From: Candidatus Anderseniibacteriota bacterium
GTDB lineage: Bacteria > Patescibacteriota > Andersenbacteria > UBA10190
NCBI GenBank assembly: GCA_016197005.1
Contig: JACPWO010000002.1
Span: 8,483 to 72,482 of the forward strand
Direction of reading: 5' to 3'
DNA: 64,000 nucleotides
Positions 4,551 to 21,705 of the stretch are shown here, one piece after another. The notes below the pieces were generated by a model, which did no database searches, was not told the origin of the DNA, and worked only from the letters and a program-made list of their open reading frames with translations. Made by a program: the position numbers and the translations under genes. Positions within the stretch are counted from its first letter, which is position 1, and each line of letters begins with the position of its first letter.

Positions 4551-4559
4551 CCACACTCT

Positions 4560-4799
4560 ATGAAAACACTCGATATGTTAAAAATGTGTCTCAACTGGAA
4601 AGTGCTTGCTAGCATCATTGCGGTGATTGTCATCACGTATATCTTCTTCCCCAAAATTGCCGCGGCCGCTCCGTTCCTGCTGGTGTTAGTCTGTCCGCTC
4701 TCAATGGTGCTCATGATGCGCGGAATGCAGCATGGTGATAAGCACGACATGCCCAGCAAAGACACGACAAAAAACCTTACTCATAACCATGACGTATGA
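4560..4799 (+). CDS. Small membrane protein with a His-rich C-terminal tail (DUF2933-like); metal-associated.
   Basis: One TM helix, then MRGMQHGDKHDM...HNHD. Positioned between the HMA fusion gene and copZ. Confidence 0.4.
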   Translation: MKTLDMLKMCLNWKVLASIIAVIVITYIFFPKIAAAAPFLLVLVCPLSMVLMMRGMQHGDKHDMPSKDTTKNLTHNHDV

Positions 4800-5020
4800 A
4801 AACCACTCTCACGATCAAAGGCACGCATTGTGCCTCGTGTAAAGCACTGATTGAAGACGTAGCCAAGGAAAATTCCTGCGTGACTGATATTGCGGTCGAT
4901 TTCAACACCGGGAAAACACTCATTGAGCATAAAGACTGCCTTGATTGGCAGGCCCTCAAACAAGAAGTCGAAAGCCTGGGCAAATATCACGTTGAGCTAG
5001 CTGGAAAGGAGACAGTATGA
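4796..5020 (+). CDS. copZ: Copper chaperone CopZ (single HMA domain).
   Basis: GTHCASC MxCxxC-type motif in a 74-aa protein with the ferredoxin-like HMA layout. Confidence 0.8.
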   Translation: MKTTLTIKGTHCASCKALIEDVAKENSCVTDIAVDFNTGKTLIEHKDCLDWQALKQEVESLGKYHVELAGKETV

Positions 5021-5919
5021 CGAAACAATCCAAGAACTATCTTATCTGGGGGATTATCATCGTGGCTCTTATCGCCGGTTTTGTCTGGTTCAAGCAAAAA
5101 GGAAGTTCTACTTCAGCCACCATTCTCAATCCTGTCAGTGCCATCACCCATGGTCATGGCTTAGCTGTGGATGTAAGTGATTCCACTAGGCTTCACATCG
5201 CCACCCATCATGGCCTGCTTGTCTTAGTGAATGACAAAGACTTGTACCGCGTCGGCACCAGCCAAGACGACTACATGGGCTTCTCACCTCACCCCACTGA
5301 TCCCAAGATAGTATTCAGCAGCGGCCATCCCCGCACCGGCGGCAATATCGGGGTGCAGCGGTCAGATGATAGCGGATTTACGTGGAAGAGCATATCCAGA
5401 GGCGCAAATGGGCCAGTAGACTTTCATGCTATGGCAATTAGTGCGGCCAATCCCAACCTGATGTATGGCTGGTACCAAGGAGCGCTGCAGCGTAGCCAAG
5501 ATGGCGGCACTACCTGGGAGATTGCGACACGCAATATACCGCAGATCATTCAATTGGTCGCTAATCCGATAGACGAAAATGTAGTTTACGCAGCGACTCC
5601 CCAAGGACTACTGGTCAGTCGCAACAAAGGAGCGGAGTGGAGCAATGCGTCTGACGACCTACAAGGCGGCGCCGTGGTGGCGCTTGCCATCGATCCGCAA
5701 GACCCAGCTAAGATGTTCTCGTTTTCCCAGCAGTCTGGATTAGCGAAGAGTGCTGACGGTGGGACGACCTGGGAGAAAATCAACGAGACGTTCGGCGGAG
5801 AGACTGTGCTCTTTATTGCCATAAGTAAACAGCAACCAGATACCGTGTACACCCTCACCGAGAGCAACACCATCTACAAGAGCACTGATGGAGGGAATGG
5901 GTGGAATAAGATTCGTTAA
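5017..5919 (+). CDS. BNR (Asp-box) repeat protein, membrane-anchored; Ycf48/sialidase-like beta-propeller.
   Basis: N-terminal TM helix. Five S-x-D-x-G-x-T-W-type repeats: [40 protein letters not shown]. Confidence 0.6.
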
Positions 5920-5923
5920 GACT

Positions 5924-8101: not shown

Positions 8102-8134
8102 CCAGCCTTTATTTTTTATCCTCTCCCAACATCT

Positions 8135-8878
8135 ATGGATCAAAATCCGAGCAATAAGTCTTCAGTATTCGGTGTGCCCGCAGCGATTGTCATCGCCGGT
8201 GGCCTCATTGCCGCCGCTCTGTATTTTGGCAATAGCAAAGCCTCCGTTCAGCAAGTAGCCTCCGGACAACAAGCAGCAAACCCTCAAGCAGCCCAACCAG
8301 CCGCGCAACCGCCAGAACCCACCATCGGCGCTATTCGCCCTATCACTGACCAAGACCACATTCGCGGGGCGAAGAACGCTAGGGTAACTATTCTCGAATA
8401 TTCTGATCTTGAGTGTCCCTTCTGTAAAAAATATCATCCTACGGTACAACAAGCCTTAAGCGAATATCCTAACGATGTGCGTTGGGTATATCGGCACTCA
8501 CCGTTAAGTCAGCTCCATAGCCAAGCTGCTAAGGAAGCTGAAGCGACCGAATGTGCCGGTGAGCAAGGCAAGTTCTGGGAAATGACAGATAAAATCTTTG
8601 AGGTTACGCCTTCAAACAACGGCCTTAACCTGGCTGACTTACCCAAACTAGCGCAACAAGTGGGCGTAGCTAATATCCCGCAATTTCAATCCTGCTTAGA
8701 TAGTGGTAAGTACACGAAGTATGTGGCTGACGACACAGCCGATGCTCAAGTCGCTGGACTGCAAGGTACACCCTATAGCGTCATTATTGCTGCCAATGGT
8801 CAGAAGTTCCCGCTCTCTGGCGCACAACCCTACAGCGCTTTGAAGCAATTGATAGATCAGGCGTTGAAGAGTAAATAA
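8135..8878 (+). CDS. DsbA-family thiol:disulfide oxidoreductase, membrane-anchored.
   Basis: N-terminal TM helix, a Pro/Gln-rich linker, and a thioredoxin CPFC active site (LECPFCKKYH). Confidence 0.75.
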   Translation: MDQNPSNKSSVFGVPAAIVIAGGLIAAALYFGNSKASVQQVASGQQAANPQAAQPAAQPPEPTIGAIRPITDQDHIRGAKNARVTILEYSDLECPFCKKYHPTVQQALSEYPNDVRWVYRHSPLSQLHSQAAKEAEATECAGEQGKFWEMTDKIFEVTPSNNGLNLADLPKLAQQVGVANIPQFQSCLDSGKYTKYVADDTADAQVAGLQGTPYSVIIAANGQKFPLSGAQPYSALKQLIDQALKSK

Positions 8879-8883
8879 GCACT

Positions 8884-9054
8884 ATGGTTCAACCTCAGCC
8901 TCAAGGTGGTAAGGAGCAAATCTATCAGTGCAAGGAGTGCGGTTTCAAGTACCAGGAAAAAGCGTGGGCAGAAAAGTGCCAGGCGTGGTGTTCGGAGCAT
9001 AAGAGTTGCAATTTAGAGATTATTCAGCATGCGGTACAGGCAGAGGAGGTATGA
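8884..9054 (+). CDS. Small zinc-ribbon-like protein (56 aa). It is absent from the ORF track because it is shorter than 60 aa.
   Basis: CKECG...CQAWCSEH four-Cys pattern. The stop overlaps the next gene's start as ATGA. Confidence 0.3.
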   Translation: MVQPQPQGGKEQIYQCKECGFKYQEKAWAEKCQAWCSEHKSCNLEIIQHAVQAEEV

Positions 9055-9302
9055 CCGTTGGAATAACCCTTATGAAAATTATTGTTCAGATGCGCCCAGG
9101 CTCAAGCCAGGCGAAGGTAGAAAAAATTGACGAGGGGCAGTATCGCGTGTGGGTTCACTCTATTCCTGAGAAAGGAAAGGCTAATGCGGAAATGCTCAAA
9201 TTGTTGGCTGATTATTTTCAGGTAGCAAAATCTTCGGTACGCATTGTGATAGGCAAAACAGCCCGTGAGAAGTTAGTTGAGATTATTGGAGGGAGTGAGT
9301 AA
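9051..9302 (+). CDS. DUF167 (YggU/UPF0235) family protein.
   Basis: Strong GGAGG RBS 8 nt upstream of ATG 9051. Motif PEKGKANAEMLKLLADYF...VRIVIGKTAREKLV matches the DUF167 pattern. Confidence 0.55.
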   Translation: MTVGITLMKIIVQMRPGSSQAKVEKIDEGQYRVWVHSIPEKGKANAEMLKLLADYFQVAKSSVRIVIGKTAREKLVEIIGGSE

Positions 9303-9455
9303 TATCAGCTTGGAGTAGTGAGAGTTGGTATTCTTTAGTCAAAAGCTTTAGACAGTGTTGTGTACTAAGTCCGCCATCCGCCTTTGTGTGGTGGATTTGC
9401 CCAGTAGGGTGAAAGGTGCGGTGAAAAGCAACAGTGGCTTACGGGTGTACCAAGA

Positions 9456-10205
9456 GTGCTACTCCAAACAAAAACTCCCATTGGGGAGTTTTTGTATGTA
9501 GCAAGCGCGTGTTTGGGTATGTATACTTTAACTATGACAACGCGGTCTGTTTCAATAGTGCGGCACACTATCATTAGCATTTCAGTTATGCTGCTGCCTT
9601 TGGCTGTTTCAGCTCAGGGCATGATGGGTAGTACGTTGCCGGTGACAGATGATCACACTGCCCGCGAAGAAGCTGAAGGCAAGGAAGTGTGGCAAAAACT
9701 CCAAGATAAGCAACTGACCTGTACTGATCTTTCTGATGACCAATTTGCCACTATCGGCGAATACTTTATGGGGCAAATGCTCGGTGGCTCTCATGCTGCT
9801 ATGAATGCCATGATGACCCGCATGATGGGTGAACAAGGCGAAGAACAAATGCACATTGTGATGGGGAAGCGTTTAAGCGGCTGTGACCCGTCGGCTGTCT
9901 ACCCGAATAGCGGCACCGGCTTCATGCCGATGATGAACATGATGATGGGAGGTGGCTTCAATATGATGAACTGGTGGGGTTATGGGCCTGGTATGCACTA
10001 CGGCTTCTGGGGAGGCAGCCCATTCATGTTTCTCTGGTGGATACTGATAGTTGTTCTGGTGGTGTTAGTCATCAAGGGGTTACGGCATCGTGGTATGACG
10101 ATGCACCAAGGGCGCACAACAGCCTTAGACATTCTCAATGAACGTTATGCCAAAGGCGAGATCAGCAAACAGGAATTTGAGGAAAAGAAAAAGGATATTT
10201 CGTGA
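9456..10205 (+). CDS. Met-rich membrane protein with a C-terminal SHOCT domain; putative copper-binding.
   Basis: Signal-like segment LLPLAVSAQG. MxxM-rich tracts (MMTRMMGEQ, MPMMNMMMGGGFNMMNW). One TM helix. C-terminal SHOCT-like LNERYAKGEISKQEFEEKKKDI. The true start may lie downstream of 9456. Confidence 0.55.
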   Translation: MLLQTKTPIGEFLYVASACLGMYTLTMTTRSVSIVRHTIISISVMLLPLAVSAQGMMGSTLPVTDDHTAREEAEGKEVWQKLQDKQLTCTDLSDDQFATIGEYFMGQMLGGSHAAMNAMMTRMMGEQGEEQMHIVMGKRLSGCDPSAVYPNSGTGFMPMMNMMMGGGFNMMNWWGYGPGMHYGFWGGSPFMFLWWILIVVLVVLVIKGLRHRGMTMHQGRTTALDILNERYAKGEISKQEFEEKKKDIS

Positions 10206-10218
10206 GGAGGTGATAGCT

Positions 10219-10383
10219 ATGGAAGGGAAATGTTCAAAATGCGGCATGGACACAGAAGGGTTCAAGTGCGATGTATGTGGAGCTGAATCAACGACACACG
10301 ATGAGCACCATGAGCACGGCGGCGACCACTGTATGCCGAAATGCAAAGCCTGTGGGCAAGCGCAAGTGAAGTGTACGTGTTAG
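10219..10383 (+). CDS. Cys/His-rich mini-protein (54 aa), metallothionein-like.
   Basis: GGAGG RBS at 10206-10210 and ATG at 10219. Nine Cys and five His residues: CSKCG, CDVCG, HDEHHEHGGDHCMPKCKACG...CTC. Confidence 0.5.
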   Translation: MEGKCSKCGMDTEGFKCDVCGAESTTHDEHHEHGGDHCMPKCKACGQAQVKCTC

Positions 10384-10410
10384 TAACTACTAATGGAGGC
10401 AAAAGAGCCG

Positions 10411-10444
10411 CATTTTCGAAAGTGGCTCTTTTCAATTCTGGCCA
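10411..10444 (+). terminator. Rho-independent terminator after the copper cluster.
   Basis: Stem AAGAGCC and GGCTCTT with a 14-nt loop, followed by TTC. Confidence 0.45.
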
Positions 10445-10510
10445 TTTAGGCCATAAATAGTAGCAGTTTAGGTGCTGCTATGTTTAACCTTATCAGGAGA
10501 GTAAACGGGC

Positions 10511-10560
10511 CTTTTCATAAAGGGAATTTTGGTTCGAACTTTGTCCGTCCCTGAGAGCAA
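10511..10560 (+). repeat. Conserved 50-nt intergenic motif, copy 1. It contains the near-palindrome GGTTCGAAC.
   Basis: 41/50 ungapped identity with 28711-28762; the first 29 positions match at 27/29. Confidence 0.6.
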
Positions 10561-10733
10561 TCAATAAAATAAATCTGCCGCTGTGGGCGTAAGTCAGGAA
10601 TGTGAGATCGAAAAAAGTACTTGACCCCCTTATTCTCAAAGTAAAACTGCTGCACCTAGGCTGTTCTAAAGCGGCGGTTGCCAACACTTACTGCGCCGTC
10701 TATGCTGATCTGTTACTTTAAGCAAATACCCCC

Positions 10734-11705
10734 ATGACCAAAAAACTCATTATTAGCCTTGTTGTTCTGGTAGCTATTCTTGTTGCGGGCATAGGTGGGT
10801 GGCTATACGTTACTCGCAGTCCCGAATATTCACTTGTTCTGGCAGCACGGGCAGTCAAAAATCACGACTACCAAGGATTTAAACAATATGTAGACGTAGG
10901 TCAAATAGTAAGCGATCTGGTGAATGATGCGGTTGCAGAAATTCAGAAACAGGTTAACGAAGACACCGAGGGCGATCCTTGGGCGCAACTCGGTGCTAAT
11001 CTGGGCAGTGCCTTTATTGGCGCCTATACTCCGCAACTCAAGGAGCAATTCACCGATCAGATTCGGAAAGGAGTAGAGGAAGGAAATTTTGGTCGAGAAG
11101 GCACCGATGCCAGCAAGATTAGTTTTTTTGATTTTTGGACAAAGACAACTGTTGAGAAGGAAGGCAAAGTAGCCAAGATAACTACCCCAACCTTCAAACT
11201 ACAAAATGACCAACCGTTCAGTTTCAATATGCGTCAATCCAACGGTCGTTGGCAGGTGTTTTCTATTGATTTTGACGTATCCGATCTAGCGTCTAATGAT
11301 GCTCCGGCAGCAGCAGATACGACTCAACGTGTAGCCTTTGGCACAAGGACAGATATTGGTGAAGGGTGGTTTTTAACCGCAACACAACCAGAGGCCTATA
11401 CTCCCACTAACCAGTTCAGCCAGCCGCCGGAAGGCAAAAAATATGTTGCCGTCGAAATTACCTACGAAAACACGTCTACAACCAAAGACAGCTTTTCAAC
11501 TTCACGGCTGACGCTCAAAGACACCGAGGATCACGCATATACCTCTACTTTCTTTGATTCGAAAGAGCCAAGCCTATCATCGGGCGATCTTGAGCCCAGC
11601 GGAACGATAAAAGGATATGTCACCTACTCAATGCCCATCGAGCTCGATCCAAAGCAACTCGTATATTCAAGTTCTCACGCTACGGTCATTTTTGAGCAGC
11701 AGTAA
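10734..11705 (+). CDS. Membrane-anchored DUF4352-like protein.
   Basis: N-terminal TM helix. The C-terminal segment KKYVAVEITYENTST...GTIKGYVTYSMP fits the DUF4352 beta-sandwich pattern. Confidence 0.45.
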   Translation: MTKKLIISLVVLVAILVAGIGGWLYVTRSPEYSLVLAARAVKNHDYQGFKQYVDVGQIVSDLVNDAVAEIQKQVNEDTEGDPWAQLGANLGSAFIGAYTPQLKEQFTDQIRKGVEEGNFGREGTDASKISFFDFWTKTTVEKEGKVAKITTPTFKLQNDQPFSFNMRQSNGRWQVFSIDFDVSDLASNDAPAAADTTQRVAFGTRTDIGEGWFLTATQPEAYTPTNQFSQPPEGKKYVAVEITYENTSTTKDSFSTSRLTLKDTEDHAYTSTFFDSKEPSLSSGDLEPSGTIKGYVTYSMPIELDPKQLVYSSSHATVIFEQQ

Positions 11706-11896
11706 ATAGGGCCGGTGTTGATAATACAGGCTGTAATAATTGTCGCATTTGTTTCAGCATAACCTCTGGTTGCGGATTTATCTCCTCCCAGTTCATGCTT
11801 AACCAATGTTCAAAAAACGTCTTTGATGGGGAGTATCTGAATTTGATCGTAGTGGTTGTTATTGACGTTGTAGTATCAGTCGTTTACATTAATTAG

Positions 11897-12187
11897 GTGA
11901 ACGAACTTAAAAAAATTGGTGACCTACCTCAAGCGCAGCAGAAAATTCTATTTACTGTTCTGCGGATTGGTAAGCCTGCGTTTCTAACATCTGAAGTTCA
12001 TAAAAAAGTTAGTGATGAAATGGCTGGACGCTCTGTGGGCGCCGTGTTGGGGTCGCTGTACCGAAATGGTTATCTAGATAAGGTGCAGGGAGGACGAGAT
12101 AAGCGCTGGGTGTTATCAAAACAAGCAGAAGCGGCACGTGATGATATTAAGCTACAGATTTCTAATGTTAAGATTTACTGGTCCTGA
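11897..12187 (+). CDS. Small protein that looks like a winged-helix DNA-binding protein; first gene of the helicase operon.
   Basis: 96 aa with an apparent GTG start. The LPQAQQKILFTVLRIG...LYRNGYLDKV...KRWVLS layout resembles a wHTH. An 11-nt gap separates it from the helicase gene. Confidence 0.35.
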   Translation: MNELKKIGDLPQAQQKILFTVLRIGKPAFLTSEVHKKVSDEMAGRSVGAVLGSLYRNGYLDKVQGGRDKRWVLSKQAEAARDDIKLQISNVKIYWS

Positions 12188-12198
12188 TATGTACAAAT

Positions 12199-15100
12199 AT
12201 GTCGGAGAAGGAAAATAAGGCCAAAGAATCAAACTCAACAACCCCTTTCATAAAAGAGGTTGGTAAATACTTTATGGAATTTCTGGAGACAGACTTTCAT
12301 AAAAGAAGGCTGCCTCGTAGGAGTATTAAACTACATAACGATAAGGGATTACTTACTGGTCTCAATCTCAGTAAGTATCCAAGTTTTTATAAAGTTGCAT
12401 ATAAGCTTGTTAACAATGCCTTCACTGACGCCGAGTTAACAATCCAAAAGGGCGTATACAAGGCAGACATACCGGAGTCGCTGCTTGATCTCATCAAGAA
12501 GCAAATAAATAAAGTTACCAATACCGAAGTTACCGCTCTCATTAAGGAGCTTGATGATTCAATCCAACAATCGTCAGTCAAATATAAAGACGACTATTTG
12601 CAGGCATTTAATTCAGTCATGGAGAATGCTGGCTCGGTATTTGAAAAACACATCATCCTCAATTTAGTAAAGAGTATAGAAAAGCCACTTGAAAATAATA
12701 AACTCGCCGATGAGAATGCCATTTTCCAGATAGAGGATGAGCTGACGAACATCTTTACAAAGAAGGTTGAAGATGCCGTAGCCGAATCTCTCAAGATTCT
12801 CTTAAGCGGCGATAAACCAAATACAAAGAAACTTTTAAAGGATGTGCTGGATATAGAGGACATCCGTGCCAGTTTGGCCAAGTTCTTTGAAATGTTTAAG
12901 GTGTCGGATCTTTTCAATGATCTACATGAGCTTTACCAGAATTTTAAAATAGAAGATAAGCAGGAATTTTATTTCTACTTTTACGATATTAGTTACCAAA
13001 AAACTAAGTATCCCATCTTCTACATCCCATTCTCTATTGAAAGACAAAGCGATACGTTTCTAATTACCTTCGATTCGCAAATTTATATCAATAAGAAAGC
13101 ATTGGCATACATCGTTCAGGAATATAACCTTGAGCGAGGCAAAAAGGGAGCACTGCAAACAATAGCCGATAGAATTATTTACCTCGCCGATCATGAGGAT
13201 GACTTGCCGTTGGTGTTACAAGACACACTGACAGAGATTTCAAACTTCTTTGACTTAGACACAAAACCTCAAGTGGCAAAACCAGACATACAATTGAGCA
13301 AGAGCCTGTATGTTACGGCGAGCACCAATGCATATATTGCCCTTTTCGATAAGTCAGACGAGGCACTATTAAATGATTATGAGGACATTCTTAATGCCGC
13401 CGCCGACAGTGTTTTAATGAAAGGCTTTCAGGTTTTGATAAATGATTTTATACACGAAAATCCTGAGTCTGTGGCAAAGCCCATCAGGGATGATTGGGAT
13501 AGTAAGGGAGTTGATGAGCGATTGGTATATAAAAGTCCCATCCCTCTCAACAGCGAGCAACAACAGATACTTTCTGCTATTCATAATGACAGGTGCAAAT
13601 ATGTGCTCGTTGAAGGTCCTCCGGGAACGGGGAAAAGCCACACAATCACTGCAATTGTTTTTGACACGATTCTGGAGAACAAATCGGTTCTCGTGCTATC
13701 GGATAAGAAGGAAGCGCTTGATGTAGTTGAGAAAAATATTGTGAACACTCTGAATAAGGTTCGCGTTGACGAGAAATTTCAGAATCCCATTTTGCGGTTA
13801 GGAAAAACTGGTAATACCTACAGTCAACTTCTTACTCAGTCATCTATTGAAGCTATTACACAGCAGTTCAGAGCCGTCAGAAGTAAATATCCTAATCTCA
13901 ATGAGCAGATAGATGTTGCGATAGAAGCATTGAGGAATGGTGTGAAGGGTCAGACTGATGCGTATCATCATATCTCGCTTGCCGATGTTAATGAACTGTC
14001 TTCATTGAAGAAGCACTTCGATGAAGCAGGTTTTTGTATCGACGTTGATGAAGCTATAAGCAACCCCGATTCTGTAGAGGAGCTTACAAAAATACGCTCT
14101 ATCTTCTTGAAGCTTAAAAATAGGATAAAAGAAAACAGAGACGTATCGTTTAACTTTGATTACACCAAAGAGCTGGGTGATGAGAATTCCAAGAACCTTG
14201 AAGAGATTATTTCTGCGTTGGAAGATATAGCGCGACTGGCAGAGGAAAGCCCGCGCCTCTTTAGTGAAAGTAAATTATCGTCTCTTTACGATCACGTTCA
14301 GAAGAACAAAGTAAAAGTAGAGAAATTGCTTGGTTATCTTGCAAGTGTGTCTGAGCTCACGAATTTATTCACTAAAAAGAAGCAGTATTTAGACTTACTT
14401 CACGTCGACAAGAATGAGCTTGATAGTTTAGCCACTATTAAAACAGTAGCGCAGCACGCTTTGTGGCTAGAAGGCATCGTCGAAAAGGTGAAATATTTTG
14501 CGAAAGATTCTCTTAGTCGTTTGAGTTCTTTTGATAAGTCGCATAGTGATGACGTTGTTGCTCTGAAGAATTATATTGACTCAGCAAAAAAGTTGCGGAA
14601 CGGATTGCTTGGCTACTTGGGGAAGAAAAGCAAGGTCGAGCAATTGAATCAGAGCTTCCGCAAGAATTTCCCTCTTTCTAAATTCGATGACCCGCATAAA
14701 CATCTAAAAGAATTAGAGGAAATTCTAGGTATCTATGAATACGTACAAGAACTTTGCGACGATAAATATCATCCGCAGGATATTGATCTGATACACTTAG
14801 TCACTTCGATTCTAAAGGATGGTGAACTGTATTTTACATCCGATCAGCTAACTGATATTCGCAATTCGTTTGATGTTACAAACAAAGTTGATGTAATCGC
14901 TCAAGAGATTTCTAGTTCTAAGTTTTCTGTTATGACGCTTCACGACCTGAATGATATTGCGGTCATTTCTGAAATTGGAGCGCTCTATGAAGAGTTGAGC
15001 GACCTTATGACTAAGGAAAAAGAGCTAATTGAATCGAATGTTGATCTAAAGAAGATCAAGAACATCAATATGCTTTTTCAAAAAGACAATCTTAAAGAAA

Positions 15101-16977
15101 TGATTGGAGAGATCAGTGTCTGCAAAGAATACGTAGATACACTCATTGAGGTTAATGATGATGTCGTTTATTTAAAGGAATCTTCTGACAATCACAAAAA
15201 TAGTTTTGCAAAGGCGGGCATCGACAATAGCTCTTTCTCTTCGTTATACGAAAACAAATTAACTGAGATATCGGATCTTGAATTTGAAAAGCTCGTCAGA
15301 TTTATCACTCTGCATCAAGAGCTGACAGAAAAATTTGATGATATTAAGGATCTCAGCTACGGAGAGCGAATGAAGCAAGTCGAGAATATTGTAACGATGC
15401 AAATGACATATCTGATGGATGAGAGATTCGTTGACTTCACCAATGACTTTAAAGCTGACGCAAAAGCATTAAAGCAGGTAATCAAGGAAAAGAAGAAGTT
15501 TCCTAAAGATCAATTCTCAAAACTCAAGAATGCATTCCCGTGTATTTTAGCCGGTATCCGTGACTATGCAGAATATATTCCCTTGGAGCCAGAGATATTT
15601 GACCTTGTCATCATCGATGAGGCATCTCAGGTAAGTATTGCGCAAGCATTCCCAGCTCTATTGAGAGCAAAGAAGGTTGTTGTGCTTGGGGATAGCCTGC
15701 AATTTAGTAACGTGAAGTCTGCTTTGGCGCGAGGCGACATTAACAAGCAGTATTTGGGTAGTCTGCGGGAAGTTTTCTTAAAAACAGTTGCTACCGAGGA
15801 AGAGACAGACAAGGTAGCCCGCCTTGAAAAATTCAATATCAAAGTTTCAATTCTCGATTTCTTCGGCTTCATTAATAATTACCAGACTCGTTTAGTTAAG
15901 CATTTCCGTGGATACCGGGAGCTTATTTCGTATTCAAATAAGTTCTTTTACAAAAACAGCCTACAGGTTATGAAAGTTCGAGGTTTGCCGATCAGTTCGG
16001 TCATTAAATTCTCTCAAGTAGACCATGACGGTAAGGAAGAAATGACTAAAAACACAAACGTGCCTGAGATAGAGTTCATTATCTCCGAGCTTAAAGCTTT
16101 AAAGGATCAAGACAAAAAATGCACCGTCGGTATCATTACCCCTCATACAAATCAGCAACGTCTACTTTATGAGAAGATTAGTGATCTGCCTGAATCTGAT
16201 TATTTCTTCGATGCGTTGAAGCTTAAGGTGATGACCTTCGACACATGTCAGGGTGAAGAAATGGATATTATTTATTATTCCATGGTGGCTACCGAAACGG
16301 AAGATAAATTAAACTATGTGTTCATTAGTGATCTCAATAATATCGATCTAGACGATGACGAAGGAAAAATTAAGGCACAACGTCTTAACGTCGGTTTAAG
16401 CCGAGCGAAGGAATGTATGCACTTTGTACTTAGCAAGCCAATTGATCAGTACGCGGGTACTGCAAAAGAATTTCTGCAGCACTACTCAAATGCTCTGCTT
16501 GAGGCTCAAAAAGAACCTGATAGTACTAGCGTAGATAAGAATTCCGAGATGGAGCCGCTGGTTCTGGAATGGATCAAACAGACGAAGTTTTGGGATGAGA
16601 ACAAAAATAATGCTGAAATATTGCCTCAGTTTGAACTTGGTAAATATCTCAAGCAGTTGGATCAGAGCTATAATCATCCTAACTATCGAGTGGATTTCCT
16701 TCTCGTATATCGCGACGAAGAAGGAAGTGAGCATAAAATCATTATTGAATATGATGGCTTCCTAGAACATTTTGGTGATGTGATGCATGTAGTCAATGAG
16801 TCAAATTACGAAGAATACTATTCATCAGAGGATGTATATCGACAGCACGTTCTAGAAGGTTATGGTTACCGATTCATTAGGATCAATAAGTTTAATCTTG
16901 GCGAGAACCCCATCGCCACGCTTGATTCTCGAATTCAGGAAATAGTAAAAAAAAACTTTACAATCACGAAATCGTAA
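12199..16977 (+). CDS. Giant 1592-aa SF1B (Upf1/DNA2-like) helicase with a C-terminal Vsr/DUF559-like PD-(D/E)xK nuclease domain. The architecture resembles the DUF4011-helicase-REase family.
   Basis: Walker A VLVEGPPGTGKSHT. Motif Ia VLVLSDKKEALD. Motif II LVIIDEASQV plus GDSLQF. Motif V TFDTCQGEEMDII. Motif VI LNVGLSRAKE. C-terminal YRVDFLLVY...IIIEYDGFLEHF...GYRFIRINKF matches the DUF559/Vsr-like fold. Confidence 0.85.
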   Translation: MSEKENKAKESNSTTPFIKEVGKYFMEFLETDFHKRRLPRRSIKLHNDKGLLTGLNLSKYPSFYKVAYKLVNNAFTDAELTIQKGVYKADIPESLLDLIKKQINKVTNTEVTALIKELDDSIQQSSVKYKDDYLQAFNSVMENAGSVFEKHIILNLVKSIEKPLENNKLADENAIFQIEDELTNIFTKKVEDAVAESLKILLSGDKPNTKKLLKDVLDIEDIRASLAKFFEMFKVSDLFNDLHELYQNFKIEDKQEFYFYFYDISYQKTKYPIFYIPFSIERQSDTFLITFDSQIYINKKALAYIVQEYNLERGKKGALQTIADRIIYLADHEDDLPLVLQDTLTEISNFFDLDTKPQVAKPDIQLSKSLYVTASTNAYIALFDKSDEALLNDYEDILNAAADSVLMKGFQVLINDFIHENPESVAKPIRDDWDSKGVDERLVYKSPIPLNSEQQQILSAIHNDRCKYVLVEGPPGTGKSHTITAIVFDTILENKSVLVLSDKKEALDVVEKNIVNTLNKVRVDEKFQNPILRLGKTGNTYSQLLTQSSIEAITQQFRAVRSKYPNLNEQIDVAIEALRNGVKGQTDAYHHISLADVNELSSLKKHFDEAGFCIDVDEAISNPDSVEELTKIRSIFLKLKNRIKENRDVSFNFDYTKELGDENSKNLEEIISALEDIARLAEESPRLFSESKLSSLYDHVQKNKVKVEKLLGYLASVSELTNLFTKKKQYLDLLHVDKNELDSLATIKTVAQHALWLEGIVEKVKYFAKDSLSRLSSFDKSHSDDVVALKNYIDSAKKLRNGLLGYLGKKSKVEQLNQSFRKNFPLSKFDDPHKHLKELEEILGIYEYVQELCDDKYHPQDIDLIHLVTSILKDGELYFTSDQLTDIRNSFDVTNKVDVIAQEISSSKFSVMTLHDLNDIAVISEIGALYEELSDLMTKEKELIESNVDLKKIKNINMLFQKDNLKEMIGEISVCKEYVDTLIEVNDDVVYLKESSDNHKNSFAKAGIDNSSFSSLYENKLTEISDLEFEKLVRFITLHQELTEKFDDIKDLSYGERMKQVENIVTMQMTYLMDERFVDFTNDFKADAKALKQVIKEKKKFPKDQFSKLKNAFPCILAGIRDYAEYIPLEPEIFDLVIIDEASQVSIAQAFPALLRAKKVVVLGDSLQFSNVKSALARGDINKQYLGSLREVFLKTVATEEETDKVARLEKFNIKVSILDFFGFINNYQTRLVKHFRGYRELISYSNKFFYKNSLQVMKVRGLPISSVIKFSQVDHDGKEEMTKNTNVPEIEFIISELKALKDQDKKCTVGIITPHTNQQRLLYEKISDLPESDYFFDALKLKVMTFDTCQGEEMDIIYYSMVATETEDKLNYVFISDLNNIDLDDDEGKIKAQRLNVGLSRAKECMHFVLSKPIDQYAGTAKEFLQHYSNALLEAQKEPDSTSVDKNSEMEPLVLEWIKQTKFWDENKNNAEILPQFELGKYLKQLDQSYNHPNYRVDFLLVYRDEEGSEHKIIIEYDGFLEHFGDVMHVVNESNYEEYYSSEDVYRQHVLEGYGYRFIRINKFNLGENPIATLDSRIQEIVKKNFTITKS

Positions 16978-17045
16978 GTGACGTTCAAGATTTAATTCGT
17001 GATCTTCGTAGTGGTAATGCAAAAGTATGCCCCAAATGTGGTGAA

Positions 17046-17681
17046 GTGAAGCCGCTATCTGATTTTCAGGATAGATCATTGGCTACAGGGGTTGGTAGGT
17101 TTTGTCGTGAGTGCAAAGTAGGATTGAGCGCTCATTACTACATTTCACCAAGCACTGAGAGACAGCAGAGGAATATTTATAGTCTCTCAAAGGGCGATGT
17201 GAATAAGCTGCATAGTTTTTCTGATACCCCGGAAAAATATGCGAGTGGAGGCAGCAAGGCACGAGAGAAAGTTCAATACCTAGAGAGTATTAAACATAAG
17301 TTTGATGGGTTACAGGTTGCCAAATACATAGCGGCTCGTAAAAAGTATGACGAAGCACTTGTGGCAAAAGCAGAGACCGAACTGAATCAGGATGTAGATT
17401 ATAGCGCCATCTTAAATGAGGCATTTAATAATCGCAGATCAGTCAAGATTCGCTATAAAGGATCATGGCGCACTGTTGATCCCTACTCTCTTAACAATAC
17501 TTATGTGGTTGCTTACTGCCATCTCGCTCGTGATATCCGAACATTTAGAGTAGACAGAATACAAGGAGCGGATTTGTCCGATTCATTTAGCTTAAATAGC
17601 AACTTGCAGGAAATGGCACAAAGTAGATTGGCTGAAGCTCCTAGCTTTCGAGGCTATAAGCGTCGGCGGCGCAGGTATTAA
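17046..17681 (+). CDS. Zinc-ribbon plus WYL-domain protein, a putative ligand-sensing regulator. The frame is open from 16926 with no canonical start, so it may be fused to the helicase.
   Basis: WYL-like segment RRSVKIRYKGSWRTVDPYSLNNTYVVAYCHLARDIRTFRVDRI. Zn ribbon CPKCG-x17-CRECK. The ORF-track GTG start at 17046 falls between the two Cys pairs. Confidence 0.55.
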   Translation: MKPLSDFQDRSLATGVGRFCRECKVGLSAHYYISPSTERQQRNIYSLSKGDVNKLHSFSDTPEKYASGGSKAREKVQYLESIKHKFDGLQVAKYIAARKKYDEALVAKAETELNQDVDYSAILNEAFNNRRSVKIRYKGSWRTVDPYSLNNTYVVAYCHLARDIRTFRVDRIQGADLSDSFSLNSNLQEMAQSRLAEAPSFRGYKRRRRRY

Positions 17682-17696
17682 ACTTAAGATTAATAT

Positions 17697-18449
17697 ATGT
17701 CCGAATACTACAATCCAAACCGTGGGCCGAAGTGGAATTACGGGGGAGATCAATGGAAGCTATCGCGCTCTAAGATCGACTTGTTTTTAGAATGCCCTCG
17801 TTGCTTCTACATCGATAACAAGCTTGGCGTAAAGCGGGTACCCGGCTTTCCTTTTGCGTTAAATAGCGCTGTGGATCATTTGCTGAAGCTGGAGTTTGAT
17901 ATTCATCGCGCCAATGGCGAGCAGCATCCACTACAAAAAGAATATGGCGTTGATGCCCGACCAGTGCCCCATGAAGAGCTTGATGAATGGAGACGCAACT
18001 TCGGTGGGGTACGTCATCTGCATGAAGCAACGGGCATGTTAGTCACCGGTGCCATTGACGATCTATGGATCAACAGTAATGACGAATACATTGTGGTGGA
18101 CTACAAGGCGACAGCAAAGGAGGAGGCCGTAACGAAACTAGATAAAGAATGGCAGGATGGGTATAAGCGGCAGATGGAAGTGTATCAGTGGTTGCTTCGT
18201 CAAAATGGCCTCAAAGTATCGGATACCGGCTATTTTGTATACTGCACCGGAAAGTTAGACGGCAAGTCATTTGATAAACGTATCGATTTTGATGTTCATC
18301 TAATCCCTTATGAAGGCAATAGTGAGTGGGTAGAAGGAACGTTGCTCAAGATAAAGGGATGTTTAGATGGTGACGCGATTCCGAAGACCGGCAAGAGTTG
18401 CGATTACTGTGCGTATTGGAATGCACGACGGTTGATTGAGTCGACATAA
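17697..18449 (+). CDS. Cas4-like/RecB-family PD-(D/E)xK nuclease with a predicted 4Fe-4S cluster.
   Basis: N-terminal LSRSKIDLFLECPRCFY. D...IVVDYK (D/ExK). QMEVYQWL (QxxxY). Three C-terminal Cys (C...CDYC). A 15-nt gap follows the WYL gene. Confidence 0.7.
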   Translation: MSEYYNPNRGPKWNYGGDQWKLSRSKIDLFLECPRCFYIDNKLGVKRVPGFPFALNSAVDHLLKLEFDIHRANGEQHPLQKEYGVDARPVPHEELDEWRRNFGGVRHLHEATGMLVTGAIDDLWINSNDEYIVVDYKATAKEEAVTKLDKEWQDGYKRQMEVYQWLLRQNGLKVSDTGYFVYCTGKLDGKSFDKRIDFDVHLIPYEGNSEWVEGTLLKIKGCLDGDAIPKTGKSCDYCAYWNARRLIEST

Positions 18450-19866: not shown

Positions 19867-21705
19867 ATGTTGGCCAAGATATTTGCACAATTAGTAACGA
19901 CAGCTGTTGTGGTAGTTGCAGCGGTGATGCTGTTCTCTGGAAACTCCAGCGCCGCCCAAAATACTAGTCAGCTTGAAATATTTTTCACGGACAAAGATAA
20001 CAATCTGAAAACAGCGTCGCTGGCTGACGAAAAATGGGGCATTGACACTGTCGATAATCCTGGTGGGGCGGTCGGCACGTCACTGTCGGTCGTGTTGGAT
20101 AACCAGGGAGCTAGCCATTTAAGCTACCGAGATAGTCGACCGGGTAAAGCAGAATATCAACAATCTGATTTACGCTATGCTACCAACAGTAGTGGTACCT
20201 GGCAGGATGAGGAGGCTTTTGGAACAGATGGTCGTATTGGTGCCAATGCAATAGTAGTAGATGCGCAAGGACATGTTCACATTATTTTCAACCATTACCC
20301 GGCAAATGATCCCAGTAATGGTGAGCTGCTTTATGCCAATAATTCAACCGGCGACTGGCAAGTAGAGGAAGTTAGCCAATCAGCTTTAATTAATAGTGGC
20401 AATATTGGCATTGATGCTAGTGGTCTACTACATACTGTCTACCAACACAATCAACAGCTTGTTTACTCTAAACGCACAGGTTCTAATCAGTGGACGAGCG
20501 AAGTGATAACATCTTTTGGCAGCCGACTACCTCATGTTGCTTTTGCCCTGGATAGTGATGGGCAACCGCAGGTTGCCATTGTTCTGCAAGATGAGAATAA
20601 ACTGAAATTCGCTAAGCGCGGTGGCGATAGCTGGAGCATTGAAGATGTGACAAGTTGGACTAACGGTGGCGACCAACATGTATACTTAGGTCTAGATACT
20701 AACGATAAGGCACACCTTGCATTAACGACTGGTCCAGGTAATGGACGTGGACCTCATTATATTACGAAAAGTGGTAACCAGTGGTTAATTGAGTCAGTCG
20801 GCGCTTTCATAACAGAGCCTTCATATTTGTCTTTGGGCGTTACCACTGACGATACGGTGCATCTAACTTTTGCGACTGCGTATGATAATTCACCACAATT
20901 AGACTCTGATCGACCACTGCATTATGCCAGACGAGTTGATAACCAGTGGATAGTTGATCAAGTGCATGAAGAAGGTACCGTCTTGCGAGGACGATTTCCC
21001 GTCATGGTAACTTCAGGTGCATCCCCTGTTTTACCCGACTGTTTTGCGCGAACTCTTGGGCTGTATTGCGCTAACGACCCGTCACCAGTAACTAATCCCA
21101 ACGTTGATAACACGAGCAGTAGCAATGAAGTTAGTAGTGGTGATAATGGTGGTGGGGGCGACTCCGGCGGCGGTGGGGGCGGTGGAGGTGGTAATGGCGG
21201 TGAATCTACACCGGCGCCCGTAGCCAAGCCGCGAGTATTAGGTATACAAACTGTTAAAGTCTCAGCAGCTGATAAAGCAGCGCCGGACTTTATTCCAAAT
21301 CAGCAGGTTCCCGTCATTGTCGCTCGACTTTTTCAAGAAGTTTTTGGGCGACTAATTACTCCTGCAGAAAGTACATACTGGAAGGGTCGAGCACGTAGTG
21401 ATAAAGCTACCGAAACTAAACTTAGAGGTGCTATGGCGTGGCACCAGGCTAACGGTTCGACAGGTGCTATGGCATCAGTAGTAACTGCTGTAAACGCTCC
21501 AGCTTCTACAACGAATATTATTTCGAACAAGCAAGTACCAGCGGTTGTTGAACAAGTATTCGCCAAGGTTTTCCATTTACGCGTTAGTGCAATTCTGAGT
21601 ACATACTGGAAGGGTCGAGCACGCACAGACAAACGCACTAAGAGTCTACTTGAAGGTGCTATGCGATGGTATCAAGGTAAAGGATTGACTTCGCCTACTA
21701 GTTGA
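19867..21705 (+). CDS. Secreted repeat protein with a propeller-like N-terminal domain, a poly-Gly linker and two C-terminal DUF4214-like repeats.
   Basis: Signal peptide. A recurring hhhDxxGxxHhhh motif about every 50 aa. Linker GGGGDSGGGGGGGGGNGG. Duplicated ...STYWKGRAR.DK.T...GAM.W.Q..G modules. Confidence 0.6.
   Translation: MLAKIFAQLVTTAVVVVAAVMLFSGNSSAAQNTSQLEIFFTDKDNNLKTASLADEKWGIDTVDNPGGAVGTSLSVVLDNQGASHLSYRDSRPGKAEYQQSDLRYATNSSGTWQDEEAFGTDGRIGANAIVVDAQGHVHIIFNHYPANDPSNGELLYANNSTGDWQVEEVSQSALINSGNIGIDASGLLHTVYQHNQQLVYSKRTGSNQWTSEVITSFGSRLPHVAFALDSDGQPQVAIVLQDENKLKFAKRGGDSWSIEDVTSWTNGGDQHVYLGLDTNDKAHLALTTGPGNGRGPHYITKSGNQWLIESVGAFITEPSYLSLGVTTDDTVHLTFATAYDNSPQLDSDRPLHYARRVDNQWIVDQVHEEGTVLRGRFPVMVTSGASPVLPDCFARTLGLYCANDPSPVTNPNVDNTSSSNEVSSGDNGGGGDSGGGGGGGGGNGGESTPAPVAKPRVLGIQTVKVSAADKAAPDFIPNQQVPVIVARLFQEVFGRLITPAESTYWKGRARSDKATETKLRGAMAWHQANGSTGAMASVVTAVNAPASTTNIISNKQVPAVVEQVFAKVFHLRVSAILSTYWKGRARTDKRTKSLLEGAMRWYQGKGLTSPTS

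What the first reader, a model, noticed from the sequence alone, without database searches (positions are those of the whole stretch)
17697..18449. Standalone Cas4-like Fe-S nuclease with no CRISPR context
The protein has the Cas4/RecB-family hallmarks: N-terminal Cys (ECPRCFY), the D/ExK motif (IVVDYK), QxxxY (QMEVYQWL) and three C-terminal Cys (C...CDYC). There is no cas1, cas2 or CRISPR array anywhere in the window. Standalone Cas4-like nucleases occur in phages and in defense modules. Here the gene is translationally close to a helicase-nuclease and a WYL gene, suggesting an effector or end-processing role similar to AddB in AddAB.
Basis: partly seen in the sequence, partly recalled or inferred. 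Interest (0 to 1): 0.55.

Follow-up and report, generated by a model that had tools for sequence, protein, structure and literature searches.

The report
Defence-linked Cas4-like nuclease of CPR bacteria
This is a real, strongly conserved small nuclease gene found only in ultra-small "CPR" bacteria; it is not part of CRISPR and in many genomes is the last gene behind an interchangeable set of anti-virus gene cassettes, so it could be used to find new CPR defence systems.

Summary
The ORF at 17697-18449 (+) is real. It encodes a 250-aa RecB/Cas4-like PD-(D/E)XK nuclease: Pfam PDDEXK_1 passes its cut-off, while the Cas4 models fall below theirs. The window has no CRISPR array and no strong Cas1/Cas2 hit. 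The source is a Candidatus Andersenbacteria MAG.

The family is very large, and every named source is Patescibacteria. Its conserved cysteines form a 2+2 pattern (CxxC...CxxC), not the canonical Cas4 1+3 pattern, so Fe-S versus Zn remains open.

The pairing with the helicase and WYL genes occurs only in this genome. The broader pattern is robust. In 32 of 73 non-redundant loci, R-M, Abi-P2-like RT, retron-like RT, OLD or PLD-SNF2 genes lie within four genes upstream, on the same strand. The gene directly upstream ends a median 4.5 nt before the nuclease. No such gene lies downstream in any of 76 loci.

Shared DNA between loci breaks exactly at the gene's start or stop codon. The same genome appears to hold a second copy behind a different cassette.

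The helicase-WYL module normally carries its own Cas4-like nuclease (DUF2779). That gene is absent here, and this gene sits in its place.

Best reading: a resident nuclease module that acts at the end of varied defence operons. No activity has been tested. It is a new variant of the known "solo Cas4" theme.

The parts
17697..18449 (+). 250-aa stand-alone Cas4-like PD-(D/E)XK nuclease (called 'the anchor' in this report)
   Evidence: ORF. PDDEXK_1 54.2 bits. AF2 model pLDDT 90.4. Foldseek matches to Cas4, AdnAB, AddB, Exo5, MGME1 and lambda exonuclease. Identical to MBI1833473.1, annotated 'PD-(D/E)XK nuclease family protein', Candidatus Andersenbacteria.
17790..17810 (+). N-terminal ECPRCFY; C33 and C36 form the first CxxC of the conserved four-Cys set
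   Evidence: C33 and C36 are invariant in 62 sequences and 93-94% conserved in 84 distant representatives.
18048..18068 (+). Motif II, GAIDDLW (G118, D121, D122, W124)
   Evidence: Invariant columns. Aligned to the SSO0001 Cas4 motif.
18090..18107 (+). Motif III, IVVDYK (D135-x-K137 catalytic dyad)
   Evidence: V134, D135, Y136 and K137 are invariant.
18171..18194 (+). Motif IV, QMEVYQWL (Q159...Y163), the RecB-family QhxxY motif
   Evidence: R158, Q159, Y163 and W165 are invariant.
18360..18410 (+). C-terminal cysteines: C222 (variable across the family) and CDYC (C235, C238; invariant second CxxC)
17046..17681 (+). WYL-domain protein, probably the ligand-sensing regulator of the cassette. 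The start codon is uncertain: called as 160, 200 or 211 aa.
   Evidence: WYL 50.6 bits. Alternative gene calls. Helicase-WYL fusions exist elsewhere (P0421; L112).
12199..16977 (+). 1592-aa SF1 (Upf1-like AAA_11/AAA_12) helicase with a weak C-terminal MTES_1575/Vsr-like endonuclease match; resembles Hhe, Mokosh, ProA and PDC-S37
   Evidence: 100% identical to HYR90_01470 of Candidatus Andersenbacteria. GC 0.389 against 0.46-0.52 in the flanks.
11897..12187 (+). 96-aa protein in the position held by a small HTH gene (HTH_17 or HTH_3) in other helicase modules
   Evidence: No Pfam hit. The assignment is positional only.
12223..17659 (+). Stretch homologous at the DNA level (70-74%) to helicase-WYL modules of other CPR genomes. 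It ends before the WYL stop codon, and the nuclease gene is not included.
   Evidence: blastn.
10384..17696 (+). Variable slot relative to the closest relative (L011, Andersenbacteria). L011 has about 0.9 kb between the conserved Cys-rich small gene and the nuclease gene, whereas this window has 7.3 kb.
   Evidence: blastn and tblastx.

Best explanation
The gene encodes a Patescibacteria (CPR)-specific, stand-alone, metal-stapled RecB/Cas4-like PD-(D/E)XK nuclease. It acts as the constant last gene of otherwise interchangeable defence operons. Variable cassettes dock directly upstream on the same strand: type I/IIG/III restriction-modification, PLD-SNF2 helicases, Abi-P2-like and retron-like reverse transcriptases, OLD-family ATPase-nucleases, and here an Hhe-like SF1 helicase-nuclease with a WYL regulator.

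Proposed mechanism for this window: the WYL protein controls expression. The helicase-nuclease engages and unwinds or nicks foreign DNA. The 250-aa nuclease then trims or degrades the exposed single-stranded or broken DNA ends. That is the job the module's usual DUF2779 Cas4-like partner does elsewhere, and the job RecB/AddB-type nuclease domains do in end resection.

Shown: fold and family, catalytic motifs, the conserved 2+2 Cys set, CPR-only named sources, strong purifying selection, the one-sided tight linkage to defence cassettes, breakpoints at the gene's ends, and absence of CRISPR.

Inferred: nuclease activity and polarity, the nature of the metal site (Fe-S or Zn), co-transcription, and any functional cooperation with the upstream genes.
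For: Family and fold: PDDEXK_1 54 bits; AF2 pLDDT 90.4; best PDB folds are Cas4, AdnAB, AddB, Exo5, MGME1 and lambda exonuclease; motifs II-IV align to SSO0001 Cas4.

Invariant residues: D121/D122, D135-Y-K137, Q159...Y163, C33/C36/C235/C238.

Context: 32 of 73 non-redundant loci carry R-M, RT, OLD, PLD-SNF2 or DpnI genes within four genes upstream, against 0 of 76 downstream (Fisher p = 1.4e-12). Pfam on -1/-2 versus +1/+2 neighbours shows the same split. The upstream gene is co-oriented in 66 of 73 loci. The median gap is 4.5 nt in defence loci and 38 nt in the others.

Blocks: RT500+anchor is a 2,268-nt block shared by L036 and L038, with different flanks on both sides. Ten locus pairs share anchor plus upstream, ending at the anchor's stop codon.

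Same cassette, divergent anchors: L053/L083 have PLD-SNF2 78% identical and anchors 59% identical.

Copy number: the same two assemblies hold a second copy (P0001, 88% identical) behind an SNF2-PLD/MmeI-type cassette.

Helicase-WYL modules end in a co-inherited Cas4-like nuclease in 13 of 22 contexts. Here that gene is missing and the anchor sits in its place.

Precedent: solo Cas4 next to R-M in DPANN, and UvrD-Cas4-like fusions with type III R-M and WYL (PMC5704561); ACE1 with pAgo (PMC12094033).
Against: About 56% of loci have no recognised defence gene upstream. Of ten such -1 genes, five had no Pfam hit and the rest were accessory types.

R-M systems are self-sufficient and need no extra nuclease.

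The gene behaves like a resident gene. Its GC matches the genome (0.469 against 0.389 for the helicase). Its identity tracks RpoB/RpoC identity between genomes and exceeds it at long distance. Four-fold sites are saturated, so the conservation is old. In seven locus pairs it is inherited with its downstream genes while the upstream cassette differs.

Some loci have a TATAAT-like box right before the ATG, which suggests independent expression.

The promoter/terminator scan of the window was uninformative. There are no biochemical or genetic data.
Confidence: 0.55

Rival explanations
1. It is a housekeeping DNA-repair or recombination end-processing nuclease of CPR bacteria, and its 5' flank merely happens to be an insertion-tolerant or targeted hotspot where defence islands accumulate. 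It has no functional link to the cassettes.
For: Strong purifying selection with saturated synonymous sites. Identity tracks or exceeds RpoB/RpoC. GC is like the host genome. Breakpoints lie at the ATG, with downstream genes conserved among close relatives. Downstream neighbours are housekeeping genes. Many loci have no recognisable defence gene upstream. Core-gene-flanked defence hotspots are known in other bacteria (PMC10250203, listed).
Against: The genome appears to hold two copies, each behind a different cassette. RT+anchor and Res+anchor blocks move together while the downstream flanks differ. The same cassette sits upstream of anchors only 59-60% identical, which implies independent arrival at the same slot. 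Gaps are very short, median 4.5 nt, in defence loci specifically. A large serine recombinase lies within 8 kb upstream in only 3 of 80 loci, and there is no conserved att-like motif.
Confidence: 0.28
2. One reading: it is a dedicated subunit of this particular helicase-WYL system and forms an AddAB/AdnAB-like helicase-nuclease machine with the 1592-aa protein.
For: It lies 15 nt after WYL on the same strand. Helicase-WYL modules usually carry a Cas4-like nuclease as their last gene (13 of 22 contexts). The AdnAB and AddB nuclease domains are among the best fold matches.
Against: None of the other 21 helicase contexts has this family. None of the other 79 non-redundant anchor loci has this helicase. 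Cassette homology ends before the gene. The gene is shared with the closest relative L011, which lacks the cassette. The helicase is Upf1-like SF1B rather than UvrD-like, and it already carries its own C-terminal endonuclease-like domain.
Confidence: 0.08
3. It is a mobility or maintenance function of the islands, for example an integration/excision nuclease, a homing-type nuclease, or a toxin/abortive-infection effector kept in check by the upstream gene.
For: Both ends of the gene are recombination breakpoints. Some -1/-2 genes are antitoxin-like: SocA/Panacea in 3 loci, HTH_3 in 5, and MazE-like in L009. TIR, NUDIX and HD fusions exist in the wider family.
Against: The conservation is extreme and old, which is unlike typical mobile-element nucleases or toxins. 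It was not found in viral contigs. Most islands contain no recombinase or transposase. No terminal repeats or att-like motif were found.
Confidence: 0.06
4. It is a true CRISPR adaptation Cas4 left behind after the rest of a CRISPR-Cas locus was lost.
For: Weak, below-threshold Cas4 profile hits. Some sources name homologs 'Cas4'.
Against: The scores are below the curated thresholds: PF01930 18.3 against 22.7, and TIGR00372 28.7 against 65. The window has no array and no strong Cas1/Cas2 hit. None of the called genes in the inspected homolog loci carries a Cas1 or Cas2 domain. The Cys pattern differs from Cas4.
Confidence: 0.01

Closest known systems
Cas4 (COG1468 / PF01930 / TIGR00372; e.g. 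SSO0001 4ic1, Pcal_0546 4r5q, type I-C Cas4 8d3l)
   Same: Same RecB-type PD-(D/E)XK core with motifs II, III (DxK) and QhxxY. Similar size. Cysteines from the N- and C-termini clamp the fold. These are the best or near-best fold matches and the only PDB sequence relative.
   Different: It falls below both curated Cas4 thresholds. The conserved Cys set is CxxC...CxxC, not C...CX2CX5C. There is no cas1, cas2 or CRISPR array. TM-scores are only 0.39-0.46.
Solo Cas4 of CPR and DPANN organisms (Hudaiberdiev et al. 2017, PMC5704561)
   Same: A Cas4-like gene outside CRISPR loci, over-represented in small-genome CPR/DPANN organisms, mostly vertically inherited under purifying selection. In DPANN it lies next to R-M genes, which suggested an uncharacterised defence role.
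   Different: That study centred on PF01930/COG1468 and covered PF12705 only briefly. It did not describe this 250-aa family, its 2+2 Cys set, the strict upstream-only arrangement, the breakpoints at the gene's ends, or the RT, OLD and helicase partners.
Nuclease domains of AddB and AdnA/AdnB (and RecB)
   Same: RecB-family nuclease fold with an iron-staple-like Cys clamp. Foldseek TMq 0.42-0.50. The role in those complexes is to process DNA ends unwound by a helicase.
   Different: Those are domains fused to UvrD-like helicases in housekeeping repair complexes. This is a free 250-aa protein. NCBIfam addA hits reach 19-22 bits against cut-offs above 700. The neighbouring helicase is Upf1-like.
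DUF2779 (PF11074) Cas4-like + RNase H-like proteins
   Same: They occupy exactly the same position after helicase-WYL in 10 of 22 helicase contexts and are part of that mobile module. They are also Cys-clamped PD-(D/E)XK nucleases. One family member is fused to DUF2779 (P0222).
   Different: They are about 500 aa with an extra RNase H-like domain and the classical 1+3 Cys pattern. No sequence relationship can be demonstrated: hhalign probability 0.5% and no BLAST hit.
ACE1, the Argonaute-associated Cas4-family enzyme (PMC12094033), and UvrD-Cas4-like fusions with type III R-M (PMC5704561)
   Same: These are precedents for Cas4-family nucleases acting as accessory DNA-processing partners of non-CRISPR defence systems.
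   Different: They have different partners and different subfamilies. Each is tied to one partner type, whereas this family sits behind many unrelated cassettes.

Membership tests
PD-(D/E)XK nuclease superfamily, Pfam PF12705 (PDDEXK_1) | Profile score above Pfam's gathering threshold | tested here: met
   54.2 bits against 22, E = 2.6e-14. Homologs carry a precomputed PF12705 annotation.
PD-(D/E)XK nuclease superfamily, Pfam PF12705 (PDDEXK_1) | Catalytic D...(D/E)xK core plus the RecB-family QhxxY motif, conserved across relatives | tested here: met
   D121/D122, D135-Y-K137 and Q159...Y163 are invariant in 62 sequences.
PD-(D/E)XK nuclease superfamily, Pfam PF12705 (PDDEXK_1) | RecB/Cas4/lambda-exonuclease-like fold | tested here: met
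   AF2 pLDDT 90.4. Foldseek E = 1e-5 to 1e-3 against Cas4, AdnAB, Exo5, MGME1, lambda exonuclease and AddB, with TMq 0.35-0.50. Phage Cas4-like proteins give TMq 0.4-0.6.
Cas4 proper (PF01930 / TIGR00372 / COG1468) | Profile score above the curated threshold | tested here: not met
   PF01930 18.3 against 22.7. TIGR00372 28.7 against 65. PADLOC Cas4 models reach only E = 3e-10 at best.
Cas4 proper (PF01930 / TIGR00372 / COG1468) | Four Cys as one N-terminal plus three C-terminal (C...CX2CX5C), ligating an Fe-S cluster (pattern recalled from the SSO0001 and Pcal_0546 literature) | tested here: not met
   The conserved set is C33-x2-C36 ... C235-x2-C238. C222 is kept in about 60% of distant relatives.
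Cas4 proper (PF01930 / TIGR00372 / COG1468) | Encoded next to cas1/cas2 or a CRISPR array | tested here: not met
   No arrays. No Cas1/Cas2 among the 25 best PADLOC families for 75 window ORFs. No cas domains in the called genes of inspected homolog loci.
Cas4 proper (PF01930 / TIGR00372 / COG1468) | Fe-S cluster present, and 5'-3' ssDNA exonuclease or endonuclease activity | not testable with these tools
   This needs purified protein.
Solo Cas4 sensu Hudaiberdiev et al. 2017 | Cas4-family gene outside CRISPR-cas loci, mostly vertically inherited, under purifying selection | tested here: inconclusive
   The context and evolutionary regime fit. However, that class was defined on PF01930/COG1468 trees and this family scores as PF12705. 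Its placement in their tree was not tested.
AddB / AdnAB / RecB nuclease module | Nuclease domain fused to, or in an obligate complex with, a UvrD-like SF1A helicase; matches the addA/addB/recB models | tested here: not met
   It is a stand-alone 250-aa protein. TIGR02784 and TIGR02785 score 19-22 bits against cut-offs above 700. The neighbouring helicase is AAA_11/AAA_12, i.e. Upf1-like.
DUF2779 (PF11074) | Profile or profile-profile similarity to DUF2779 proteins | tested here: not met
   hhalign probability 0.5%. No significant BLAST or HMM hit.
Hhe / Mokosh / ProA (for the neighbouring helicase, as context only) | NCBIfam equivalog score above cut-off | tested here: not met
   ProA 140 against 1500 and Hhe 78.5 against 2000. 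PADLOC PDC-S37, MkoA and MkoC give partial matches at E = 1e-32 to 1e-38. The domain layout is similar, but it is not a member.

The most novel reading that the evidence does not exclude
The family is an obligate shared effector or processing nuclease into which many unrelated sensor or primary-effector modules plug: R-M, Abi-P2-like RT, retron-like RT, OLD, PLD-SNF2 and Hhe-like helicase-WYL. That would be a 'one constant nuclease, many exchangeable front ends' immune architecture specific to CPR bacteria. It would use an unusual CxxC...CxxC metal staple. It would also define new system types, namely Abi-P2-like RT + Cas4-like nuclease and retron RT + Cas4-like nuclease, and the gene would be a reliable marker for undiscovered CPR defence genes.
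Probability: 0.3. Interest if true: 0.8.

Novelty: new variant of a known kind. Interest (0 to 1): 0.6.

Why it matters
Few defence systems have been identified in Patescibacteria genomes, which mostly lack CRISPR-Cas (stated in PMC12366544, and PMC12455944). A strongly conserved, easily recognised gene that marks the downstream edge of a variable defence slot gives a practical way to mine new CPR defence systems by association. Examples are the unannotated 183-aa and 999-aa proteins in L001 and the RT+nuclease blocks. If the nuclease really cooperates with its upstream cassettes, that would show how genome-reduced bacteria share one DNA-processing enzyme among many immune modules. It would also add a biochemically distinct 2+2 Cys branch to the Cas4/RecB nuclease group. 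If it does not cooperate, the gene is still a documented defence-island hotspot flank in a poorly understood phylum.

Tried and rejected
- Conserved helicase/WYL/nuclease operon: rejected. None of the other 79 non-redundant anchor loci has the helicase, and none of the other 21 helicase contexts has this family.
- Recent horizontal spread as the reason for 76-88% identity: rejected. Four-fold degenerate sites are at the random level (24-35% against 26% expected), even for the closest pair. As a control, the mobile helicase is also near saturation, so conservation alone does not prove a housekeeping role.
- Phage origin: no relative was found in IMG/VR. The scan relies on exact peptide patterns, so this is weak negative evidence.
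- Serine-recombinase targeting of the gene's 5' end: a recombinase lies within 8 kb upstream in only 3 of 80 loci. No conserved att-like motif lies upstream; the region is AT-rich and variable.
- Homology to DUF2779: not demonstrable.
- PDB sequence search: only SSO0001, at a non-significant E of 0.38.
- Domain fusions as a guide to function: heterogeneous (DUF2779, TIR+GYF, NUDIX, HD_4), so not decisive.
- Promoter/terminator scan of 10.3-19.9 kb: counts no higher than in shuffled sequence.
- Literature: no paper was found that describes this family as a defence-slot marker or as a retron/Abi-P2 partner. The library searched is incomplete.
Full report
**1. Observation**

The ORF at 17697-18449 (+) is present exactly as described: 250 aa, ATG start. 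The quoted motifs are all there:
- ECPRCFY, aa 32-38
- GAIDDLW, aa 118-124
- IVVDYK, aa 132-137
- QMEVYQWL, aa 159-166
- C222 and CDYC, aa 235-238

It is a real gene. Pfam PDDEXK_1 scores 54.2 bits against a cut-off of 22. More than 8000 database clusters match, and the best 120 are 76-88% identical. The exact protein is MBI1833473.1 / MBI3250829.1, annotated 'PD-(D/E)XK nuclease family protein [Candidatus Andersenbacteria bacterium]'. The window lies on the 492-kb contig JACOTL010000006.1 of GCA_016178385.1.

The window has no CRISPR context. There are no Rfam hits at all, no tandem arrays and no spaced direct repeats. PADLOC on 75 window ORFs showed no Cas1 or Cas2 among the 25 best of 40 matched families.

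**2. What the protein is**

The Cas4 models match only below their thresholds: PF01930 18.3 against 22.7, and TIGR00372 28.7 against 65. An AlphaFold2 model built on 62 sequences is confident (pLDDT 90.4, pTM 0.88).

Its best solved-structure matches are Cas4-Cas1 (7mi4), the AdnA/AdnB nuclease domains, type I-C Cas4, Exo5, MGME1, lambda exonuclease, Pcal_0546, SSO0001 and AddB. These are only moderate matches, with TMq 0.35-0.50. Phage Cas4-like proteins match at a similar level. By sequence, the only PDB relative is SSO0001 Cas4, at a non-significant E of 0.38, aligned over motifs II-IV.

Across 62 relatives at 34-87% identity, these residues are invariant:
- D60, K64, E66, D68, R71
- G118, D121, D122, W124
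- V134, D135, Y136, K137
- R158, Q159, Y163
- C33, C36, C235, C238

C222 is kept in only about 60% of 84 distant cluster representatives. The conserved metal-binding set is therefore CxxC...CxxC (2+2), not the canonical Cas4 pattern of one N-terminal plus three C-terminal cysteines. Sequence alone cannot decide between an Fe-S cluster and Zn.

The family is large: 263 clusters at 50% identity with E < 1e-30. Every named source is Patescibacteria. A few loci carry other taxon labels (Muribaculaceae, Gammaproteobacteria, Elusimicrobiota), which I take to be binning errors.

**3. The helicase/WYL pairing is not conserved, but a broader pattern is**

I compared 91 loci, 80 of them non-redundant. 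None of the other 79 has the helicase or the WYL gene. The neighbours show a strict asymmetry instead.

- *Upstream.* Pfam on the two upstream genes finds ResIII (10), RVT_1 (8), SWI2_SNF2, N6_Mtase, Eco57I, HSDR_N, AAA_15/AAA_21 (OLD-like), SocA/Panacea, TnsA-like and GIY-YIG.
- *Downstream.* The two downstream genes are housekeeping: TspO, GTPases, RpoB/RpoC, FtsK-gamma, UDG and FtsZ-like.
- *Counts.* R-M, RT, OLD, PLD-SNF2 or DpnI cluster genes lie within four genes upstream in 32 of 73 loci, and within four genes downstream in 0 of 76 (Fisher p = 1.4e-12).
- *Orientation and spacing.* The upstream gene is co-oriented in 66 of 73 loci. The gap to the nuclease ATG has a median of 4.5 nt in defence loci and 38 nt in the others.
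- *Other loci.* Ten -1 genes from loci without a recognised defence gene were either unannotated or accessory types: APH, a hydrolase, RhuM+Fic, YHYH and a PIF1 helicase. None was a core gene.

**4. Resident gene or cassette gene? Both behaviours occur**

*Resident behaviour.*
- The window and its closest relative L011 share the small Cys-rich gene (window 10138-10383) and the nuclease gene. L011 has about 0.9 kb between them, whereas the window has 7.3 kb holding the DUF4352, 96-aa, helicase and WYL genes.
- The helicase has GC 0.389, while the nuclease (0.469) matches the flanks.
- In L039/40/43/48, DNA homology starts 5-7 nt before the ATG and runs downstream, while the upstream cassettes are unrelated.
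- Four-fold degenerate sites are at the random level even for the 88.8%-identical pair, so the conservation is old purifying selection rather than recent transfer.
- Identity tracks RpoB/RpoC between genomes and exceeds it at long distance, 59% against 46%.

*Cassette behaviour.*
- L036 and L038 share exactly 'RT500 + nuclease', 2,268 nt at 88%, with different flanks on both sides. L045 and L046 share 'type III Res + nuclease' and diverge right after the stop codon.
- Of 1,537 locus pairs, 1,520 share only the gene itself. Ten share gene plus upstream, ending at the stop codon. Seven share gene plus downstream, starting at the ATG. None share both sides.
- Cassette and nuclease histories are decoupled. 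L053/L083 have PLD-SNF2 78% identical and nucleases 59% identical. L022/L036 have nucleases 93% identical and R subunits 28% identical.
- RT500 is Abi-P2-like (PDB 7r08, E = 1e-77). RT305 is a retron Ec86-like RT.
- The same two NCBI assemblies, and the same sequencing run (SRR12113416), also hold a paralog, P0001, at 88% identity. It sits behind an SNF2-PLD / MmeI-type methylase / 183-aa / 999-aa cassette. The organism therefore appears to have at least two copies, each behind a different cassette. This is inferred from the accession blocks and has not been verified on a closed genome.

**5. The cassette in this window**

The 1592-aa protein is an SF1 (AAA_11/AAA_12) helicase with a weak C-terminal MTES_1575/Vsr-like match. 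It has partial similarity to ProA, Hhe, Mokosh and PDC-S37, all far below their family cut-offs.

Its homologs are 67-81% identical across CPR. They define a module: small HTH, helicase, WYL, often next to a large serine recombinase. Helicase-WYL fusions exist (P0421; L112).

In 13 of 22 distinct contexts, the next gene is a Cas4-like PD-(D/E)XK nuclease:
- DUF2779 or Cas4+RNase H type: 10 contexts
- UvrD-PDDEXK_1 fusion: 2 contexts
- the 250-aa family: 1 context, this window

DUF2779 belongs to the mobile block, because homology between related modules ends exactly at its stop codon. In the window, homology to other modules covers only 12223-17659 and stops before the nuclease gene. The window has no DUF2779. 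So a helicase-WYL module that lacks its usual nuclease sits directly in front of the resident one.

DUF2779 and this family are not demonstrably related by sequence.

**6. Interpretation**

Best explanation (confidence about 0.55): this is a CPR-specific stand-alone Cas4-like nuclease that acts as the constant terminal module of interchangeable defence operons. Here it probably processes DNA ends or single strands exposed by the helicase-nuclease, under WYL control. Activity, metal content, co-transcription and cooperation are all inferred.

Main rival (about 0.28): a housekeeping end-processing nuclease whose 5' flank is simply a defence-island hotspot.

A mobility or toxin role (about 0.06) and a degenerate CRISPR Cas4 (about 0.01) are unlikely.

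**7. Relation to what is known**

Hudaiberdiev et al. 2017 (PMC5704561) reported solo Cas4 in many CPR and DPANN genomes, R-M adjacency in DPANN, and UvrD-Cas4-like fusions with type III R-M and WYL genes. They treated PF12705 only briefly. ACE1 shows that a Cas4-family enzyme can assist a non-CRISPR defence system.

I found no description of the following:
- this 250-aa family
- its 2+2 Cys set
- the upstream-only arrangement across many cassette types
- the breakpoints at the gene's ends
- the Abi-P2-like and retron-like RT partners

The library searched is incomplete. I rate this a new variant of a known kind, with interest 0.6.

Noticed in passing
L091, L095, L096, L100, L102, L104, L106, L109, L122 (helicase loci); window 11897-17681: Small HTH, 1585-1592-aa SF1 helicase, WYL and DUF2779 (Cas4-like + RNase H-like) behave as a four-gene mobile module in CPR genomes, often beside a large serine recombinase. 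Shared DNA ends exactly at the DUF2779 stop codon. Helicase-WYL fusions exist (P0421, L112). It matches no curated defence family above threshold.
   Followed up: partly
L036:6483-8750 and L038:6483-8750; also L031, L032, L015: An Abi-P2-like reverse transcriptase (500 aa; PDB 7r08, E = 1e-77) plus the 250-aa nuclease form a two-gene block. L036 and L038 share it at 88% nt identity, with unrelated flanks on both sides. This is a candidate RT + Cas4-like nuclease system.
   Followed up: partly
L042:5910-8748, L047, L054:2031-4863: Two small genes (95-130 aa and about 120 aa), a retron Ec86-like RT (305 aa) and the nuclease are co-inherited. I did not look for an msr/msd non-coding RNA.
   Followed up: no
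L001:4444-7998: In the paralogous locus of the same MAG, a 183-aa and a 999-aa protein with no Pfam match lie between an MmeI-type methylase and the second nuclease copy. They are possible unknown defence genes.
   Followed up: no
50 nt upstream of the nuclease ATG in L011, L021, L064, L077, L085, L086: A TATAAT-like box ends 6-10 nt before the ATG, and most loci have no Shine-Dalgarno sequence. This suggests leaderless or very short-leader transcripts where the gene stands alone.
   Followed up: no
window 2781-10383: A copper/redox gene set lies to the left of the variable slot: DsbD_2+HMA+cupredoxin protein, CopA-like P-type ATPase, DsbA-like thioredoxin, YggU, and a SHOCT-domain protein. 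A Cys/His-rich 81-aa ORF (10138-10383) overlaps the SHOCT ORF by 68 nt and is conserved in L011.
   Followed up: partly
window, exact positions not determined: PADLOC hits elsewhere in the 64-kb window suggest further defence-like genes: PDC-M68A (3e-29), SAVED_HNH (2e-20), 'Effector endonuclease' (3e-20) and SduA/DUF4263 (1e-11). Hits to mad2/mad3/mad8 and AriA are probably generic two-component or ATPase matches.
   Followed up: no
window 1-64000: No Rfam family reaches its gathering score anywhere in 64 kb, so there is no tRNA, rRNA or riboswitch hit on either strand.
   Followed up: no
window 19867-21705: A 612-aa secreted-looking protein with BNR-like repeats, a poly-Gly tract (GGGGDSGGGGGGGGGNGG) and two similar C-terminal segments of about 70 aa ('...STYWKGRAR.DK.T...').
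   Followed up: no
L043:6375-7994 and L044:6261-7922: In some loci, the gene directly upstream of the nuclease is a stand-alone UvrD-like helicase (540 aa) or a PIF1-like helicase (554 aa). This echoes the unfused UvrD + Cas4-like pairs noted by Hudaiberdiev et al.
   Followed up: no
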